DNA of 57,070 nucleotides from a virus (lineage: Duplodnaviria; Caudoviricetes): IMG/VR virus record IMGVR_UViG_3300031949_000043, positions 1 to 57,070 of that record; one strand, written 5' to 3'. This document shows, piece after piece, positions 2 to 56,979 of this stretch (positions are counted from its first letter, which is position 1; the number at the start of each line of letters is the position of its first letter). The position numbers and the translations under genes are program-made. A model generated the notes under the pieces. That model did no database searches, was not told where the DNA came from, and saw only the letters and a list, made by a program, of their open reading frames with translations.

Positions 2-523
2 GATTGGGAGTACAAGCAGTCCGATCAGCGGGAGTGGCATGTGCCGTGCCCATATTGCAGGGAATTCCAGATCCTCGATTGGTGGTCGCACTTCGTCGAA
101 GAAAAGAAGAACAAGTTTGGTGCGATCACGAGCGTGGAAATCCGCGACAAGGAGCGGCGGCAGCGTGGCATCCTCGAATACCGGCCGCTCTGCACGAACT
201 GCCAGATGCCAATGGACCGTCTGTCTAGGCAAGGCAAATGGGTGAAACTGGCTCCCAGCAACAAGCTTGTTGCCGGATTCCGCAAATCAAACCTCGTGGT
301 TCCCACAACCAAGATGTGGGAATTGTTCGACCACTACCGGAAGGGATTGCACGATCCGGGGGCGATGGCCAAATTTGTGAACAACCAGTTGGGCATGCCG
401 TATTCTGCATCCGGTTCGGGGATCGACGATGCGATGCTGCAAAGCGCATCGACCGGGCAAGCCTGCAAGATGCCCGCGTATCGGCTGATCCCCGCAGAGT
501 CGATGCAATGGAGGAGTTTGTGA
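2..523 (+). CDS. Terminase large subunit, lambda GpA type, C-terminal end of the ATPase part (5'-truncated by window edge)
   Basis: Frame is open from position 2 (DWEYKQSDQREWHVPCPYC...CTNC...GKWV...FVNNQLGMPY), matching the GpA-family SDQR-x-VPCPxC zinc finger and F-x-N-x-x-LG-x-PY motifs; stop at 521-523. Confidence 0.8.
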   Translation, partial: DWEYKQSDQREWHVPCPYCREFQILDWWSHFVEEKKNKFGAITSVEIRDKERRQRGILEYRPLCTNCQMPMDRLSRQGKWVKLAPSNKLVAGFRKSNLVVPTTKMWELFDHYRKGLHDPGAMAKFVNNQLGMPYSASGSGIDDAMLQSASTGQACKMPAYRLIPAESMQWRSL

Positions 524-53090: not shown

Positions 53091-53441
53091 GTGCTGTCCG
53101 TGGTCAGCCGACAGATTAGACCGATAGGCAGGGGAACGGATGCTGTCCGGAACCTGAAGATCATGTACGAACAGTTGAAAACCTTCCTTTACGATCTGGA
53201 ACTCACCGACGATGTTCGACTGTTGACTAGTTATCTGGCGACCCGGTTGTGCCAGTCGATGGAAGTTGAGGTTAAGGCGTTGCGCGACCTAACCGGCGCA
53301 TCGGGTGCCGATCTTCATGTCGCCTGCAAATCTGCGGTCGCATTAGTGCTCAAAAGTTTCGATCTATCGGAGTCGGAGCGGACCGGAACGGACTGGGCGA
53401 AACTCGCGGCCAGCCGGCTCCGCGAACAGGGAGGCGTATGA
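53091..53441 (+). CDS. Hypothetical protein
   Basis: Fills the operon; start uncertain. Confidence 0.5.
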   Translation: MLSVVSRQIRPIGRGTDAVRNLKIMYEQLKTFLYDLELTDDVRLLTSYLATRLCQSMEVEVKALRDLTGASGADLHVACKSAVALVLKSFDLSESERTGTDWAKLAASRLREQGGV

Positions 53442-53659
53442 TCGAGCCCGTTCGCAATCTCTGGCGTCGATACGTCCGATGGCGGCTGCATGTGGAATTA
53501 GCCAACGCAATCGCATGGCGCGATTATTGGCATAGCGCATATTTCGTGTCTGTGGACGGAGCCAATCTTCGGGCGTATCGGGAATTAGGTCGCTGGACCA
53601 AAGAGATCGAGCGGCTGGAACACGAGATTGCTGAGCATGAGAAGGCTGGTGTAAAATGA
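53438..53659 (+). CDS. Hypothetical protein
   Basis: GGAGG RBS; ATGA overlaps at both ends. Confidence 0.6.
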   Translation: MIEPVRNLWRRYVRWRLHVELANAIAWRDYWHSAYFVSVDGANLRAYRELGRWTKEIERLEHEIAEHEKAGVK

Positions 53660-55146
53660 GCGCTACCGCAATCCAGTGGACCGACCATTCGCAAAATCCG
53701 ATTCGCGCCAAACTCAAGTCTGGAGCGATCGGGCACTACTGCGAGAAGATCAGCAGCGGTTGCGCAAATTGCTACGCATCGAAAATGCAGGCGCGTTTCA
53801 AAATGCCCAGTTTCCCCGGTGCGGGGAAGCGGGACGAGGACGTGGAGATTTTCTTCGATGATGAGAAACTCCACGAAGTCTTGCGCCGTCGTAAGCCAAC
53901 GAAGTATTTCTGGTGCGACATGAGCGATATGTTTGGATCTTGGGTGCCAGACGAATGGATCGACAAGTGCTTCGCCACGATGGCGCTGACACCGCAGCAT
54001 ACGCATCAGGTATTGACGAAGCGGCCAGAGCGTATGGCGGAGTACACCCGTAGTTCCGACGTGGGACAACGCATCTTTGAAGCAGCGAACGCGCTTTGTG
54101 ACCGGACTGGTTTTTCCGATGGGTGGAAGAGATGGAATTCTGGCGGCGAGCACACTGCGGTCTGGCCACTCCCAAACGTCTGGCTTGGCACGAGTGTCGA
54201 AGACCAAAAGTCTGCCGATGGGCGGATACCGCATCTGCTGAGATGTCAAGCGGCGGTGCGGTTTCTGTCGTGCGAACCGCTGCTGGGGGCGATCGATCTA
54301 AGTGTATGGATTGGAGGCATCCATGAAGAGGTCGGAAGAATTGATTTACCCAATGGTGCAGGCTGGAAAGTTTTGGATCGACGATCAGGGGCGAGTATGG
54401 CGCATTCTGCGGCACAAGAGCAGAATGAGACGCGCGGAACACGAAGCGACGTACTTGCAGGTTCGCTCGATGGTCGAGTGCAATCGAGTTCATGCTTTGG
54501 CGCATCGGCTGGTGTGGCTGCACTTCAACGGGCCGATTCCAGACGGGATGACGATCAATCACAAGGATGGCAACAAGCACAACAACCACCCCTCGAATCT
54601 AGAGTTGGCGACATACAGCGATCAGATCAAGCATGCCCGATCAGTATTGGGCAAGGCTGGACAGGCGGGGGCAAAGAACAACAACGCCGTATTGACGCAA
54701 GAGACGGTGAATCAGATACGAACGCGACGAGCGAACGGCGAGTCACTGAAGTCGATTGCAGAAGATTTCGACGTGAGCGATCGAACGATTTCCAAAGTCG
54801 CGCTCGGCCATCGTTGGACTGGATAATTTGCGGCGGCGAATCGGGGCCGAAGGCGCGCCCGTGTCATATCGGGTGGATCGATTCTATCCGCGACCAGTGC
54901 CGAGCGGCTGTAATACCGCTGTTCGTGAAACAACTTGGTGGCCATGTTATTGCCACCGGAGCGGGCGAGAATCGCATCAGGCTGGAAGATCGTAAGGGTG
55001 GCGACATGATGGAGTGGCCGCAGGATCTTCGTATTCGAGAGTTTCCAGAGGTACACCACGCGAAGGGCGCAACCCCGGACAGGCGGATGAACTACCAATT
55101 CATGCGCCACACGATCGGGACACACCACGATAGCCGGTGTTGGTAG
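53656..55146 (+). CDS. DUF5131 (phage Gp37/Gp68, radical-SAM-like) protein containing a ~165-codon insertion
   Basis: IQWTD, C.KIS.GCANCYA, MSDMF, QVLTKRPERM, NVWLGTSVE, RFLSCEPLLG, then LDWIICGGESGPKARP...LFVKQLG after the insert. Confidence 0.88.
   Translation: MSATAIQWTDHSQNPIRAKLKSGAIGHYCEKISSGCANCYASKMQARFKMPSFPGAGKRDEDVEIFFDDEKLHEVLRRRKPTKYFWCDMSDMFGSWVPDEWIDKCFATMALTPQHTHQVLTKRPERMAEYTRSSDVGQRIFEAANALCDRTGFSDGWKRWNSGGEHTAVWPLPNVWLGTSVEDQKSADGRIPHLLRCQAAVRFLSCEPLLGAIDLSVWIGGIHEEVGRIDLPNGAGWKVLDRRSGASMAHSAAQEQNETRGTRSDVLAGSLDGRVQSSSCFGASAGVAALQRADSRRDDDQSQGWQQAQQPPLESRVGDIQRSDQACPISIGQGWTGGGKEQQRRIDARDGESDTNATSERRVTEVDCRRFRRERSNDFQSRARPSLDWIICGGESGPKARPCHIGWIDSIRDQCRAAVIPLFVKQLGGHVIATGAGENRIRLEDRKGGDMMEWPQDLRIREFPEVHHAKGATPDRRMNYQFMRHTIGTHHDSRCW
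54323..54826 (+). CDS. HNH homing endonuclease nested in the +1 frame of the DUF5131 gene
   Basis: GGAGG RBS then ATG; AHRLVW..FNGPIP...INHKDGNKHNN..SNLE; C-terminal HTH (LKSIAEDFDVSDRTISKV). Confidence 0.88.
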   Translation: MKRSEELIYPMVQAGKFWIDDQGRVWRILRHKSRMRRAEHEATYLQVRSMVECNRVHALAHRLVWLHFNGPIPDGMTINHKDGNKHNNHPSNLELATYSDQIKHARSVLGKAGQAGAKNNNAVLTQETVNQIRTRRANGESLKSIAEDFDVSDRTISKVALGHRWTG

Positions 55147-55196
55147 CACGGGTCGAGTGGAAGCCCGCAGAGTGGATGCATGGAAAAGGAAGTGAC

Positions 55197-55586
55197 ATGA
55201 ACCCAACCAAAGAACAGATCGATGAGGCGGAGTTGCTGTTGCAAATGGGGATCAGTGCTGTGAGAGAACCGCAACTGGCGCATGCGGTGCGCATTGTTCT
55301 TGCCGAACTCGCCCGCCTTCGCCAGCGCGAGGAGCATGTCATAAAACTGGTGAAGGCGGCGCAACATATGGTGAATGATGCCGAGGCGTCCACATTCGCG
55401 AACCGGAGTAGGACCATGCCGACACTACTGGACATTTCCGATGACCTGTTGGCGCTTCAAGGATTGATCGATGCTCTCAAGCCCTTCGCCGGAGAGCCGA
55501 TTTCCCCGCAAAATAATGACACGCCCGCAAGCGGCAGGAGCAGCGAACATGAAGATCAAGGAAATTCTGCGCGAATCCAACAATGA
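55197..55586 (+). CDS. Hypothetical protein
   Basis: AAGGA RBS. Confidence 0.5.
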   Translation: MNPTKEQIDEAELLLQMGISAVREPQLAHAVRIVLAELARLRQREEHVIKLVKAAQHMVNDAEASTFANRSRTMPTLLDISDDLLALQGLIDALKPFAGEPISPQNNDTPASGRSSEHEDQGNSARIQQ

Positions 55587-56549: not shown

Positions 56550-56834
56550 ATGAAAAAGTCTAATTCAAAATCAAGACTGTCGGCCCTGAGACAGGCGGCG
56601 GCGCAGGCGTGGAAGGTGGAGGCGAAGGCGTGGGCGAAAGCGGAAGCAAAGGTAATGGCGTTGACGAAGGCGAGAAAGGAGTGGGAGAAGGCGGAAGGGG
56701 AGTGGGTGAAGGCAGAGGCGAAGGCGAAGGCGAAGGCGATGAAGCATGAAAAAGTCCAACGCGAAATTGAGTGCGGCAACCAAGGCACGGGCAAGAGCGG
56801 AGAAGGCATGGAAGGTGGCGATGAAGACGGATGA
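56550..56834 (+). CDS. Ala/Lys/Glu-rich helical protein (paralog 1)
   Basis: MKKSNSKSRLSA...AWKV; low-complexity AKAEAK repeats. Confidence 0.5.
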   Translation: MKKSNSKSRLSALRQAAAQAWKVEAKAWAKAEAKVMALTKARKEWEKAEGEWVKAEAKAKAKAMKHEKVQREIECGNQGTGKSGEGMEGGDEDG

Positions 56835-56979
56835 AAAAGCGCAGAAGGCGAGGGCGAAGGCATGGCTCGCAAAAGAAATATCCGACCTAGCTAATGAGGC
56901 AAACATAATGGCATTGAATGAGGCAGAGGACGCAGAAGCCGCGGCGCGCGATGCCGAAAGGGCGGCGGCAGAGGGATGA
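56746..56979 (+). CDS. Ala/Lys/Glu-rich helical protein (paralog 2)
   Basis: MKKSNAKLSA...AWKV; same start context as 56550. Confidence 0.55.
   Translation: MKKSNAKLSAATKARARAEKAWKVAMKTDEKAQKARAKAWLAKEISDLANEANIMALNEAEDAEAAARDAERAAAEG

What the first reader, a model, noticed from the sequence alone, without database searches (positions are those of the whole stretch)
53656..55146. Complete HNH endonuclease gene nested out of frame inside a still-open host gene (dual-coding ~500 nt)
Seen: the DUF5131 ORF has no stop across 496 codons, but between its conserved motifs EPLLGAIDL and LDWIICGGESG lie ~165 codons of non-family sequence. The +1 frame of exactly this insert encodes an intact HNH-HTH endonuclease (54323-54826) with its own GGAGG RBS, and its TAA is formed from the host codons TGG ATA ATT. 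No intein ends (C/S...HN) or obvious group I intron flanks are visible, and the insert is essentially just the ORF. Inference: a homing endonuclease that avoids killing its target without splicing, by landing in a tolerant loop and keeping the host frame open (or by ribosomal bypass). This would be an alternative to intron- and intein-borne homing.
Basis: partly seen in the sequence, partly recalled or inferred. Interest (0 to 1): 0.82.

Follow-up and report, generated by a model that had tools for sequence, protein, structure and literature searches.

The report
Out-of-frame homing endonuclease inside DUF5131
A selfish DNA-cutting enzyme gene sits in a shifted reading frame inside a phage enzyme gene whose own frame is kept free of stop codons, so one stretch of DNA can give both proteins; this trick was first described in 2025 for one other phage gene and here turns out to be widespread.

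Summary
ORF 53656-55146 (496 aa, DUF5131, radical-SAM superfamily) is open. Between its conserved motifs, in the +1 frame, lies an intact I-HmuI-like HNH-HTH endonuclease gene (54323-54826). It has its own GGAGG site, and its TAA is made from host codons ATA ATT.

This is not chance. Synonymous-codon shuffles expect about 8 stops in the host frame, and none of 5000 shuffles gave zero.

Scans that started from the HNH, and so did not depend on the host frame, found 85 distinct relatives.
- 52 are flanked on both sides by DUF5131 halves, at two sites. All are +1 to the host. Together they have 1 host-frame stop against about 294 expected.
- 19 free-standing relatives have 89 stops against about 111 expected.

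No intron (Rfam) or intein (Pfam) signal was found. The host-frame insert is hydrophilic and modelled as disordered, while the HNH frame folds confidently. Carriers are scattered on the host tree, and HNH and host divergence are uncorrelated, which fits homing.

About 24 of 56 relatives carry a TATAAT box 6-7 nt before the ATG, suggesting leaderless mRNA.

The principle is already published as the 'ShiLan domain' in mycobacteriophage methylases (Genes 2025). This is a new, much larger member family. No RNA or protein data were available.

The parts
53656..55146 (+). Host gene: DUF5131 (Gp37/Gp68, radical-SAM superfamily) ORF of 496 codons, open through the insert
   Evidence: ORF list. PF07505 229.5 bits. 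phrog_2045 E 4.4e-84. It keeps all 28 columns that are invariant in a 67-sequence family alignment, including C29, C39 and G393/E395/S396.
53740..53772 (+). Host Cys motif C29-x6-C36-x2-C39 (presumed Fe-S cluster ligands)
   Evidence: C29 and C39 are invariant and C36 is at least 90% conserved in A3. DUF5131 is listed as a radical SAM subgroup in PMC9477430 (passage read). The cluster-binding role is inferred.
53656..54300 (+). N-terminal host part (codons 1-215), ending in EPLLGAIDL
   Evidence: Custom DUF5131 HMM domain 1 covers residues 1-221. AF2 pLDDT is 85-98, except 70-75 for residues 151-170.
54301..54813 (+). Insert region read in the host frame (codons 216-386): hydrophilic, non-family peptide. 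The element's true ends lie within about 20 nt of these limits.
   Evidence: No Pfam family at E<=5. AF2 pLDDT 33-48 for residues 223-376. Empty alleles have 18-273 nt at this position. The exact junctions are not resolvable because the nearest listed empty alleles are only 59-68% identical in the part that aligns.
54313..54317 (+). GGAGG Shine-Dalgarno site, 5 nt upstream of the HNH ATG
   Evidence: Sequence. An SD-like motif 3-11 nt upstream is seen in 21 of 58 nested relatives.
54323..54826 (+). Nested HNH-HTH endonuclease gene (167 aa), +1 frame relative to the host
   Evidence: phrog_59 HNH endonuclease E 2.4e-35. The family profile matches I-HmuI, PDB 1U3E, at E 2.5e-9. AF2 mean pLDDT 82.
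54497..54622 (+). HNH_3 catalytic core (HNH residues 59-100)
   Evidence: Pfam HNH_3 covers residues 59-100. H80, N88, N92 and H104 are invariant among the 5 nested HNHs in A2.
54692..54796 (+). C-terminal helix-turn-helix of the endonuclease (HNH residues 124-158)
   Evidence: HTH_38 E 6.4e-5 and HTH_7 E 3.7e-4, both below their curated cut-offs. The AF2 model has three helices at 126-160.
54824..54826 (+). HNH stop codon TAA, built from host codons ATA ATT (I390 I391) of the conserved W-[IV]-I strand motif
   Evidence: Sequence. W389 and I391 are at least 90% conserved in the host family. In all 50 nested relatives examined the HNH stop lies in the same host motif, or for site A just before WPLP.
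54814..55146 (+). C-terminal host part (LDWIICGGESG onward)
   Evidence: Custom HMM domain 2 covers residues 374-467. AF2 pLDDT 79-96 for residues 381-470.
53438..53659 (+). Upstream 73-codon ORF whose TGA overlaps the host ATG (ATGA), which places the host gene inside a + strand operon
   Evidence: No PHROG match.

Best explanation
A mobile I-HmuI-like HNH-HTH homing endonuclease gene is overprinted in the +1 frame on a loop-coding part of a phage DUF5131 (radical-SAM-type) gene.

The element is little more than the endonuclease ORF. In the window it brings or uses a GGAGG site 5 nt before its ATG, and it borrows its stop codon from the host's conserved W-I-I codons.

Ribosomes translating the host gene read straight through the insert. 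This adds a hydrophilic, probably disordered loop of about 165 residues, just before a beta-strand of the barrel. Selection removes every stop codon from that 'shadow' frame, so the host enzyme is still made as one chain. The endonuclease is made separately by internal initiation. In many relatives it appears instead to come from an internal promoter that would give a leaderless mRNA.

The endonuclease then cuts or nicks insert-free DUF5131 alleles during co-infection or in prophages. Repair copies the element in, which is homing.

Shown here:
- the anatomy;
- stop-codon purging in the host frame across a large family;
- the sporadic, host-independent distribution;
- the absence of intron and intein signatures.

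Inferred:
- read-through translation;
- disorder and tolerance of the loop;
- independent HNH expression;
- endonuclease activity and homing.
For: Anatomy.

Stop purging in the window: 0 stops observed against 7.9 expected, with 0 of 5000 shuffles giving zero.

Family evidence from searches that started from the HNH:
- 104 HNH hits in 91 records collapse to 85 distinct copies.
- 52 copies are flanked on both sides by DUF5131 halves, 42 at the window's site B and 10 at a second site A.
- 80 of the 82 HNH hits (before collapsing near-identical copies) that have a DUF5131 flank are +1 to the host. The other two are L136_878 and the free-standing L167_2504.
- All 52 inserts have a length that is a multiple of 3.
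- Host-frame stops total 1 observed against 293.7 expected. For 40 of the 52, P(0) is below 0.01.
- The 19 non-nested relatives have 89 stops against 110.8 expected. They include copies lying directly upstream or downstream of DUF5131 genes.

HNH integrity:
- 51 of 52 nested copies have no stop in their own frame, and 48 of 52 cover the full profile.
- Catalytic residues are invariant.
- The profile matches I-HmuI.
- The HNH frame folds at pLDDT 82, while the same DNA in the host frame gives pLDDT 33-48.

Host integrity:
- All 28 family-invariant columns are kept.
- The insert lies between strands 201-206 and 389-392.

Host-frame peptide: Kyte-Doolittle hydropathy -1.25, 16% hydrophobic residues, rich in G/R/S/D/E/Q. 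It is slightly more hydrophilic than the shuffles (mean Z -1.2 over 57 copies, against -0.3 over 12 non-nested copies).

No splicing signatures.

Mobility:
- Of the 120 best DUF5131 proteins, 6 carry the insert. These need 5 changes of state on the host tree, the same as shuffled labels (5-6 in the ten shuffles printed).
- Host and HNH pairwise identities are uncorrelated (rho 0.014, 171 pairs from 19 loci), with pairs such as host 26% / HNH 65%.

The same principle has been published for another host gene (PMC11855218).
Against: - There are no RNA or protein data. The only public run holding the stretch is DNA, probably the source sample, and laying it gave nothing.
- No near-identical filled/empty allele pair was found, so the junctions and the target site are not defined. 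The nearest listed empty alleles are 59-68% identical in the part that aligns.
- The 52 nested copies share ancestry and are not 52 independent events.
- One nested copy (L125) has a host-frame stop.
- The doubly invaded gene in L001/L160 has a TGA upstream of the inserts, so host function is not always kept.
- Low pLDDT is not proof of disorder or of tolerance.
- The HTH matches are below Pfam's cut-offs.
- Endonuclease activity and homing are inferred from family membership and distribution only.
Confidence: 0.8

Rival explanations
1. The HNH is a domesticated partner of DUF5131 rather than a selfish homing element. It would be kept inside or beside the gene because the two proteins work together, for example on DNA, and it no longer moves.
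For: Relatives of this HNH clade sit at four positions tied to DUF5131 genes: upstream, site A, site B and directly downstream. The top weak fold matches of the host are DNA-repair radical SAM enzymes (spore photoproduct lyase, E 8e-3).
Against: About 95% of sampled DUF5131 genes lack it: 114 of the 120 best proteins and 76 of 80 viral loci. Carriers are scattered on the host tree, needing 5 changes for 6 carriers. HNH and host divergence are uncorrelated. None of 130 cultured-phage records with DUF5131 carries it. Homing endonuclease genes typically lie next to the gene they cut, so adjacency is expected under homing as well (general knowledge).
Confidence: 0.08
2. The insert is a non-canonical intein or another protein-level self-excising element whose endonuclease is encoded out of frame, as in the cyanobacterial dnaX intein. 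That would also require an open host frame.
For: Inteins with out-of-frame endonucleases exist (bioRxiv 10.64898/2026.09.14.751524 and 10.1101/2025.01.02.630785; passages read). An open frame is equally required for protein splicing.
Against: The host-frame insert matches no Pfam family, Hint/intein families included, at E<=5. Five other carrier proteins match nothing beyond DUF5131, apart from one chance-level Ribosomal_L50 hit (E 0.22) in P0100. Only 7 host-frame codons precede the HNH start and none follow its stop, so a splicing domain would have to be fully dual-coded. The residues at the 3' junction vary (SLDW, LSW, LAW, ISW, ISL), with no HN + C/S/T. The region is modelled as unstructured.
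Confidence: 0.04
3. The insert is removed or skipped at the RNA or translation level: an unrecognised self-splicing intron, or long-range ribosomal bypass. The open frame would then be irrelevant.
For: HNH genes of the I-HmuI family are classically carried by group I introns (1U3E is I-HmuI). A bypass element linked to an HNH gene is known in T4 (bioRxiv 10.1101/2022.08.31.505936; search listing and abstract only).
Against: No Rfam match in the window (E<=10) or in 14 nested loci totalling 68.7 kb (E<=0.1). The insert is essentially only the ORF, which leaves no room for a ribozyme core. Splicing or bypass would not explain why about 294 expected host-frame stops are reduced to 1 while free-standing relatives keep theirs.
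Confidence: 0.03
4. A programmed +1 frameshift fuses the N-terminal half of DUF5131 to the HNH. On this view the nested ORF is a frameshift product, not an independent gene.
For: The HNH is +1 to the host in 80 of the 82 HNH hits that have a DUF5131 flank.
Against: In the HNH frame a stop lies 0-81 codons upstream of the start that script 42 picked, and 0-20 codons upstream in most copies. The start is ATG in 42 of 50 copies. It is preceded by an SD-like motif in 21 of 58 copies, or by a TATAAT box 6-7 nt upstream in 24 of 56. These are signals of independent initiation. This does not explain why the host frame downstream is kept open.
Confidence: 0.03
5. The open host frame is chance in a GC-rich gene, or the DUF5131 gene is a dead pseudogene.
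For: In relatives with GC3 of about 0.8 or more, the chance of a stop-free frame reaches 0.02-0.13.
Against: For the window, 0 of 5000 shuffles were stop-free. Across 52 distinct nested copies there is 1 stop against 293.7 expected. The host keeps all family-invariant residues.
Confidence: 0.01

Closest known systems
[quoted passage not shown]
   Same: An insertion in a conserved phage gene gives no stop in the host frame. An HNH endonuclease ORF nearly as long as the insert lies in another frame. No intron or intein signature is found. The host-frame product is predicted to be a loop. The distribution is disjunct and homing-like. The HNH stop sits at the very 3' end of the insert.
   Different: - Host gene: DUF5131, not a methylase.
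- Endonuclease type: HNH_3 + HTH of the I-HmuI type, not HNH flanked by zinc fingers.
- Frame: +1 (second frame), not the third frame.
- Start: ATG with GGAGG, or TATAAT at 6-7 nt in relatives, instead of GTG with no RBS.
- Two insertion sites in one host family.
- Found across environmental phages and bacteria of several phyla, rather than in phages that infect Mycobacterium.

That paper contains no synonymous-shuffle test (the word 'synonymous' occurs 0 times) and no mention of DUF, gp37, gp68 or radical SAM. Homology between the two HNHs was not tested, because the ShiLan sequence was not fetched.
Pacc40 gp60 insertion (same paper, section 3.6)
   Same: A second out-of-frame, DNA-binding or HNH-like ORF inside a methylase/helicase gene. 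Related free-standing HNH genes lie next to empty alleles in other phages. Here too, free-standing relatives lie directly upstream or downstream of DUF5131 genes.
   Different: The host gene and the endonuclease are different, and the authors regard the HNH assignment as less certain.
Inteins with out-of-frame homing endonucleases (cyanobacterial dnaX intein, bioRxiv 10.64898/2026.09.14.751524; actinophage inteins with frame-3 EndoVII-like HEN, bioRxiv 10.1101/2025.01.02.630785)
   Same: The endonuclease is overprinted on an open host-frame stretch that is itself unstructured.
   Different: Those elements keep a Hint splicing domain that excises the insert from the protein. Here no splicing domain or junction residues are present.
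I-HmuI (PDB 1U3E), the group I intron-encoded HNH homing endonuclease of Bacillus phage SPO1
   Same: The endonuclease family is the same: the profile of the nested HNHs matches 1U3E at E 2.5e-9 over the catalytic core. It has an HNH core plus a C-terminal helical DNA-binding module.
   Different: I-HmuI rides in a self-splicing intron. That I-HmuI is a nicking enzyme is recalled from memory and was not tested.
Free-standing homing endonuclease genes that split or flank their target gene (e.g. mobE in the Aeromonas phage Aeh1 nrdA gene; recalled from memory, no call)
   Same: An intron-less, intein-less endonuclease gene is inserted in or beside the gene it targets.
   Different: Those insertions end the host frame and give a gene in pieces, or they lie between genes. 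Here the host remains one ORF.

Membership tests
Out-of-frame HNH insertion element (ShiLan-domain kind) | An insertion inside a conserved host gene, relative to insert-free alleles | tested here: met
   A custom HMM splits the window protein into residues 1-221 and 374-467. 74 empty viral alleles have 18-273 nt at this position, against about 513 nt here.
Out-of-frame HNH insertion element (ShiLan-domain kind) | The host reading frame has no stop across the insert | tested here: met
   0 stops in the window. 51 of 52 distinct nested relatives have none. This is far below the shuffle expectation.
Out-of-frame HNH insertion element (ShiLan-domain kind) | An intact HNH ORF in another frame, nearly coextensive with the insert | tested here: met
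   54323-54826 lies within the insert region 54301-54813 (+13 nt). HNH_3 E 3e-17.
Out-of-frame HNH insertion element (ShiLan-domain kind) | No intron and no intein signature | tested here: met
   Rfam. Pfam. The junction residues vary.
Out-of-frame HNH insertion element (ShiLan-domain kind) | A disjunct, homing-like distribution | tested here: met
   5 changes of state for 6 carriers among 120 proteins. Host and HNH identities are uncorrelated.
Out-of-frame HNH insertion element (ShiLan-domain kind) | Host is a phage DNA methylase, and the HNH is homologous to the ShiLan HNH | tested here: not met
   The host is DUF5131. No methylase is annotated under any listed phage match of the HNH. Direct comparison with the ShiLan HNH was not done. 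The window element is therefore the same kind of element, not the same element family.
HNH_3 / I-HmuI-like homing endonucleases | An HNH_3 domain above Pfam's cut-off, with the catalytic His/Asn kept | tested here: met
   62.4 bits against a cut-off of 24.8. H80, N88, N92 and H104 are invariant in A2. 1U3E matches at E 2.5e-9.
HNH_3 / I-HmuI-like homing endonucleases | A C-terminal helix-turn-helix DNA-binding module | tested here: inconclusive
   HTH_38 scores 23 bits (cut-off 27) and HTH_7 21 bits (cut-off 23.8). The AF2 model has three helices at 126-160.
HNH_3 / I-HmuI-like homing endonucleases | Site-specific nicking or cleavage of the insert-free allele | not testable with these tools
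   This needs an in vitro assay.
DUF5131 (PF07505, Gp37/Gp68; radical SAM superfamily subgroup) | A Pfam match above the cut-off and the family-invariant residues, including the Cys motif | tested here: met
   229.5 bits against a cut-off of 28.9. The invariant columns are kept. The radical SAM listing is in PMC9477430. The fold search is only weak: 4fhf at E 8e-3.
Intein | A Hint splicing domain, with N-terminal C/S and C-terminal HN followed by C/S/T | tested here: not met
   No Pfam family in the host-frame insert at E<=5. The junction residues are not conserved. pLDDT is 33-48.
Group I / group II intron | A ribozyme core detectable by covariance models | tested here: not met
   No match in the window at E<=10 or in 14 related loci at E<=0.1.

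The most novel reading that the evidence does not exclude
'Read-through' (overprinted) homing endonuclease genes may be a widespread third lifestyle beside introns and inteins, with adaptations of their own.
- A shadow frame kept stop-free and hydrophilic, so the host enzyme tolerates it as a disordered loop placed before a beta-strand.
- Expression signals stitched from host and element: a -35 box made of the host's V/I-D-L codons plus the element's TATAAT, 6-7 nt before the ATG, which would give a leaderless HNH mRNA. In the window the signal is a GGAGG site instead.
- A stop codon donated by the host's conserved strand motif.

Truncated copies that stay in frame (L192, L159) would make such elements a source of new loop sequence in radical-SAM-type enzymes.
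Probability: 0.5. Interest if true: 0.75.

Novelty: new member of a known kind. Interest (0 to 1): 0.6.

Why it matters
Homing endonuclease genes are thought to survive inside genes only by hiding in self-splicing introns or inteins. The 2025 ShiLan report suggested a third way from a few mycobacteriophage methylases, without statistics or experiments.

This window and its relatives show that the arrangement is not a curiosity. About 5% of sampled DUF5131 genes carry it. It occurs at two sites and in phages, and probably prophages, of several phyla. The host-frame stop codons are removed by selection: 1 observed against about 294 expected, with free-standing relatives as a built-in control.

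Several things follow.
- There is now a quantitative signature, a stop-free alternative frame around a homing endonuclease gene, that can be searched for genome-wide.
- There are candidate promoter and RBS solutions to the open question of how the hidden endonuclease is expressed.
- There are record-named actinomycete genomes (Nonomuraea, Spongiactinospora, Spirillospora) where it could be tested.
- Annotation is affected: such genes are called as single long 'DUF5131' proteins, and the endonuclease is missed.

Tried and rejected
- Intron: Rfam on the window and on 14 related loci found nothing.
- Intein: Pfam at E<=5 on the host-frame insert found nothing. Five other carrier proteins gave only DUF5131, apart from one chance-level Ribosomal_L50 hit in P0100.
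- Chance: rejected by shuffles.
- Ascertainment bias: the first protein search could only return long, open forms. I therefore repeated the census starting from the HNH.
- Low-GC free-standing relatives were a poor control because their GC3 is 0.13-0.44. They were replaced by shuffles and by free-standing relatives of GC3 0.45-0.89.
- Decay remnants: no HNH remnant at E<=1 inside the 76 empty viral alleles, including those with long loops. L055 and L057, which lacked a C-terminal hit, are ordinary empty alleles with a divergent C-terminus. L055 was read; L057 was not read.
- Sigma-70 promoter in the window upstream of the HNH: none on the + strand.
- Sequencing runs: no RNA holder is listed. 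One DNA run, probably the source, was laid. It gave only four short pieces over a conserved motif (54249-54289) and one contig from 55192, with no joints.
- Cultured phages: HNH relatives are free-standing. None of 130 DUF5131-bearing records covers 80% or more of the window protein.
- Fold search of the host model: no match at E<=0.001. The top rows are radical SAM enzymes at E 8e-3 to 0.3, used only as a weak hint.
- Literature: 'DUF5131' occurs in 1 paper, which is unrelated to this arrangement. The ShiLan papers are the only ones found on this kind of element. A claim that the DUF5131 case is unpublished rests on those searches alone.
- Supplements and the GitHub tables of PMC11855218 were not seen. 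They may list further hosts.
- Rows dropped:
  - Near-identical HNH copies (>=90% nt identity over >=60% of the shorter) were collapsed, 104 to 85.
  - Copies under 150 codons were left out of the hydropathy test.
  - Copies without the profile's first 6 positions or without 70 nt upstream were left out of the promoter count.
  - Only the 19 site-B loci with a complete N-terminal host domain entered.


Full report
**What is there.** The window is a 57,070-base linear virus record, about 41% complete by CheckV. It holds one DUF5131 gene and one HNH gene.
- ORF 53656-55146 on the + strand is open for 496 codons. It is a DUF5131/Gp37-Gp68 protein (PF07505, 229.5 bits; phrog_2045).
- Its ATG overlaps the stop of a small upstream ORF (ATGA), so it lies in a + strand operon of genes with no PHROG match.
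- A custom family HMM aligns residues 1-221 and 374-467 and leaves the stretch between them unmatched.
- In the +1 frame of exactly that stretch lies ATG 54323 to TAA 54826, encoding 167 aa. It has an HNH_3 domain (E 3e-17) and a weak C-terminal HTH, and matches phrog_59.
- GGAGG lies 5 nt before the ATG. The TAA is formed from host codons ATA ATT of the conserved W389-I390-I391 motif.

**Is the open host frame chance?** No.
- I shuffled synonymous codons within the HNH ORF 5000 times. The mean was 7.9 stops in the host frame, and no shuffle reached zero.
- The other alternative frame has 9 stops against 7.6 expected.
- Four nested relatives from viral contigs gave the same result, with P(0) <= 2e-4.

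**Is it recurrent? A census free of ascertainment bias.**
- The first protein search already showed five other DUF5131 proteins of 471-517 aa with a like-sized insert at the same place. That search could only return long open ORFs.
- I therefore searched from the endonuclease: viral contigs, metagenome contigs (80 of 131 relatives kept) and one genome per species (7 loci).
- With local HMMs for host and HNH, 104 HNH hits in 91 records collapse to 85 distinct copies.
- 52 copies have DUF5131 halves on both sides. 42 are at the window's site (site B, between EPLLG..DL and DW[IV]I.GGESG). 10 are at a second site (site A, in the variable region before WPLPNVW).
- One gene (L001, also held as L160) has both sites filled.
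- In all 52 the two host halves share a frame, the HNH is +1 to it, and the insert length is a multiple of 3. No case with halves in different frames was seen.
- Host-frame stops inside the HNH span total 1 (in L125) against 293.7 expected.
- A further 14 copies are cut by contig ends or flanked on one side only. 12 of these have no stop in that frame. The other two are L136_878, a partial HNH read in the host's own frame (2 stops), and L167_2504 (15 stops), which is really free-standing.
- The 19 non-nested relatives have 89 stops against 110.8 expected. Several lie immediately upstream or downstream of DUF5131 genes, and their GC3 range is 0.45-0.89.
- The one clear exception among them is L128, with 0 stops against 5.1 expected. 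It sits in front of a divergent DUF5131-like C-terminus.
- Purifying selection against stops therefore acts specifically on copies that lie inside the host gene.

**Not an intron, not an intein.**
- Rfam finds nothing in the window at E<=10, or in 14 nested loci at E<=0.1.
- The insert is essentially only the ORF.
- The host-frame insert peptide matches no Pfam family at E<=5. Five other carrier proteins match only DUF5131, apart from one chance-level Ribosomal_L50 hit in P0100.
- Junction residues are not conserved.
- Splicing or ribosomal bypass would also leave the purging of stops unexplained.

**The two products.**
- AlphaFold2 with a 67-sequence alignment models the host fold at pLDDT 85-98, with a dip to 70-75 over residues 151-170. 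Residues 223-376 are at 33-48. The insert lies between strand 201-206 (plus a 4-residue helix) and strand 389-392.
- Site A likewise ends directly before strand 175-181. Both sites are therefore loops that precede a beta-strand. In beta/alpha barrels that is the face away from the active site. This is an inference from general barrel architecture, because the 3D coordinates were not inspected.
- The fold search gives only weak matches, led by spore photoproduct lyase and other radical SAM enzymes. This agrees with DUF5131 being listed as a radical SAM subgroup (PMC9477430).
- The host keeps all 28 family-invariant columns.
- Across 57 nested copies the host-frame peptide is very hydrophilic. 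Its Kyte-Doolittle hydropathy is -1.25, 16% of residues are hydrophobic, and it is rich in G/R/S/D/E/Q. It is slightly more hydrophilic than the shuffles (mean Z -1.2, against -0.3 in 12 non-nested copies).
- The same DNA read in the HNH frame folds at mean pLDDT 82. The model has a beta-rich N-terminus, the HNH core, a linker and three C-terminal helices.
- The family profile matches I-HmuI (1U3E) at E 2.5e-9. Catalytic residues are invariant.
- 51 of 52 nested copies have no stop in their own frame, and 48 of 52 cover the full profile.

**How the endonuclease is expressed (inferred).**
- The start is ATG in 42 of 50 copies examined. A stop in the HNH frame lies 0-81 codons upstream, mostly 0-20. 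This argues against a frameshift fusion.
- Two signal types occur. The first is an SD-like motif 3-11 nt upstream, seen in 21 of 58 copies. The window's GGAGG belongs here. At site A the host's own K-E codons (AAGGAG) serve this role.
- The second is a TATAAT-like hexamer (at least 5 of 6 matches). It ends exactly 7 nt before the ATG in 21 of 56 copies and 6 nt before it in 3 more. Counts are zero at offsets 8-18, and 0 of 8 free-standing copies have it.
- 14 of these 24 also have a -35 match (at least 5 of 6) at 16-18 nt spacing, often TTGACT made from the host's V/I-D-L codons.
- In the host frame the hexamer reads Y-N. The motif Y[NTDS]P is absent after 'DL' in 79 empty alleles and present in 4 of 6 carriers, so the hexamer belongs to the element.
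- Such a promoter would start transcription at or next to the ATG, giving a leaderless mRNA. This is the mode that the ShiLan authors guessed at. The window copy has no such box and would rely on internal initiation.
- These motif counts come from related sequences and are not independent events.

**Mobility (inferred from distribution).**
- Of the 120 best DUF5131 proteins, 6 carry the insert. On a tree built from the 322 host match columns these need 5 changes of state, no fewer than shuffled labels (5-6 in the ten shuffles printed).
- In the listing, eight proteins rank above the first insert-bearing relative (P0009). P0002-P0007 were confirmed insert-free by alignment; P0008 (362 aa) was not inspected individually.
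- Host and HNH pairwise identities are uncorrelated (rho 0.014, 171 pairs from 19 loci), with pairs such as host 26% / HNH 65%.
- 4 of 80 viral DUF5131 loci (2 distinct) carry it. None of 130 cultured-phage records does. In cultured phages the HNH's relatives are free-standing 'HNH homing endonuclease' genes.
- Carriers include contigs whose record titles name Nonomuraea, Spongiactinospora, Spirillospora, a Phenylobacterium MAG and a Fraserbacteria MAG.
- Truncated but still in-frame copies exist, for example L192 and L159_578, where the HNH profile stops at about position 124.

**Comparison with what is known.**
- A full-text search found the same principle already in print. This is the 'ShiLan domain' of mycobacteriophage DNA methylases: an insertion with no stop in the host frame, hiding an out-of-frame HNH, without intron or intein features. 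It is predicted to loop out and is proposed to be translated leaderlessly (PMC11855218; I read the abstract, all of sections 3 and 4, and search passages).
- That paper does not mention DUF5131, gp37/gp68 or radical SAM, and has no synonymous-codon test.
- Related cases are inteins whose endonuclease is out of frame.
- 'DUF5131' occurs in only one held paper, which is unrelated to this arrangement.
- The window element is therefore a new member of a known kind. The host gene, the endonuclease type (I-HmuI-like HNH_3 + HTH), the frame (+1) and the expression signals all differ, and the family is far larger and more widely distributed.
- Whether its HNH is homologous to the ShiLan HNH was not tested.

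**Limits.**
- There is no RNA or protein evidence. The one public run holding the stretch is DNA and was uninformative.
- The element's exact ends and target site are undefined, because no near-identical empty allele was found.
- The nested copies share ancestry.
- One nested copy has a host-frame stop (L125). The doubly invaded gene of L001/L160 has a TGA upstream of its inserts.
- Supplements and repository files of the cited papers were not seen.

**Verdict.** My confidence is about 0.8 that this is a read-through, overprinted homing endonuclease element. It is a new member of a kind first described in 2025. Its main value is in showing that the arrangement is general, in giving the first quantitative evidence that the host frame is kept open by selection, and in giving concrete hypotheses for how the hidden gene is expressed.

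Noticed in passing
L001 980-3046 (the same sequence is held as L160): One DUF5131 gene carries two nested HNH genes, at site A and site B, both +1 to the host. The host frame is open for 595 codons through both. A TGA replaces a Gly codon upstream (..GPRWT*KIQ.., against ..GPRWTGKVE.. in L051). The site-A HNH also has one in-frame stop near its start. This may be a recently dead host gene, a sequencing error or read-through.
   Followed up: partly
L167 1764-3308; also L171, L188, L158: HNH relatives sit directly after a complete DUF5131 gene. In L167 a second copy of the host's C-terminal segment follows the HNH (order N - C - HNH - C'), as if the insertion had duplicated the 3' part of the gene. 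These copies have 2-15 stops in the -1 frame.
   Followed up: partly
L136 617-2230: Besides a normal site-B nested HNH, a partial HNH (profile 69-179) lies in the same frame as the host part that follows it (profile from 150). The host's N-terminal 150 residues were not found. This may be an in-frame fusion or a decayed site-A copy.
   Followed up: no
L128 2431-3213: An HNH relative with a stop-free -1 frame (0 stops against 5.1 expected) precedes a divergent DUF5131-like C-terminus (..IIIGANSTRGAKKPP..). A stop lies just upstream and no N-terminal host domain was detected. It also has TTGACT-16 nt-TAGAAT-6 nt-ATG.
   Followed up: partly
L117, L137, L164, L166, L184, L186, L187 and others (5' junction of site B): There is a composite sigma-70-like promoter. 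The -35 TTGAC(T/A) is made from host V/I-D-L codons, the spacer is 17 nt, and the -10 TATAAT is supplied by the element (Y-N in the host frame). The HNH ATG follows 7 nt later.
   Followed up: yes
L192 2501-2902 (record title names a Phenylobacterium MAG); L159 578-973: Nested HNH copies lack the C-terminal HTH part (the profile ends near position 124). They still end at the host's W-V-I stop, and the host frame is open (inserts of 375 and 357 nt). They are either a natural short form or in-frame decay.
   Followed up: partly
window 56550-56979: Two overlapping small + strand ORFs (56550-56834 and 56746-56979) both begin MKKSN(S/A)K and encode Lys/Ala/Glu-rich low-complexity proteins (..KAEAKAKAKA..). 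The region has extreme purine skew (GC skew up to 0.50, AT skew up to 0.60). No PHROG match for the first.
   Followed up: no
window 53524-54589 and 54712-55206, minus strand: Long antisense ORFs (241, 263 and 164 aa) overlap the DUF5131/HNH region. No evidence of coding was sought. Such ORFs are common opposite GC-rich genes.
   Followed up: no
window 55060-55146 (host residues 471-496): The host protein has a C-terminal tail of about 26 residues beyond the family profile. It has pLDDT under 50, and the next ORF (GTG 55137) overlaps it.
   Followed up: no
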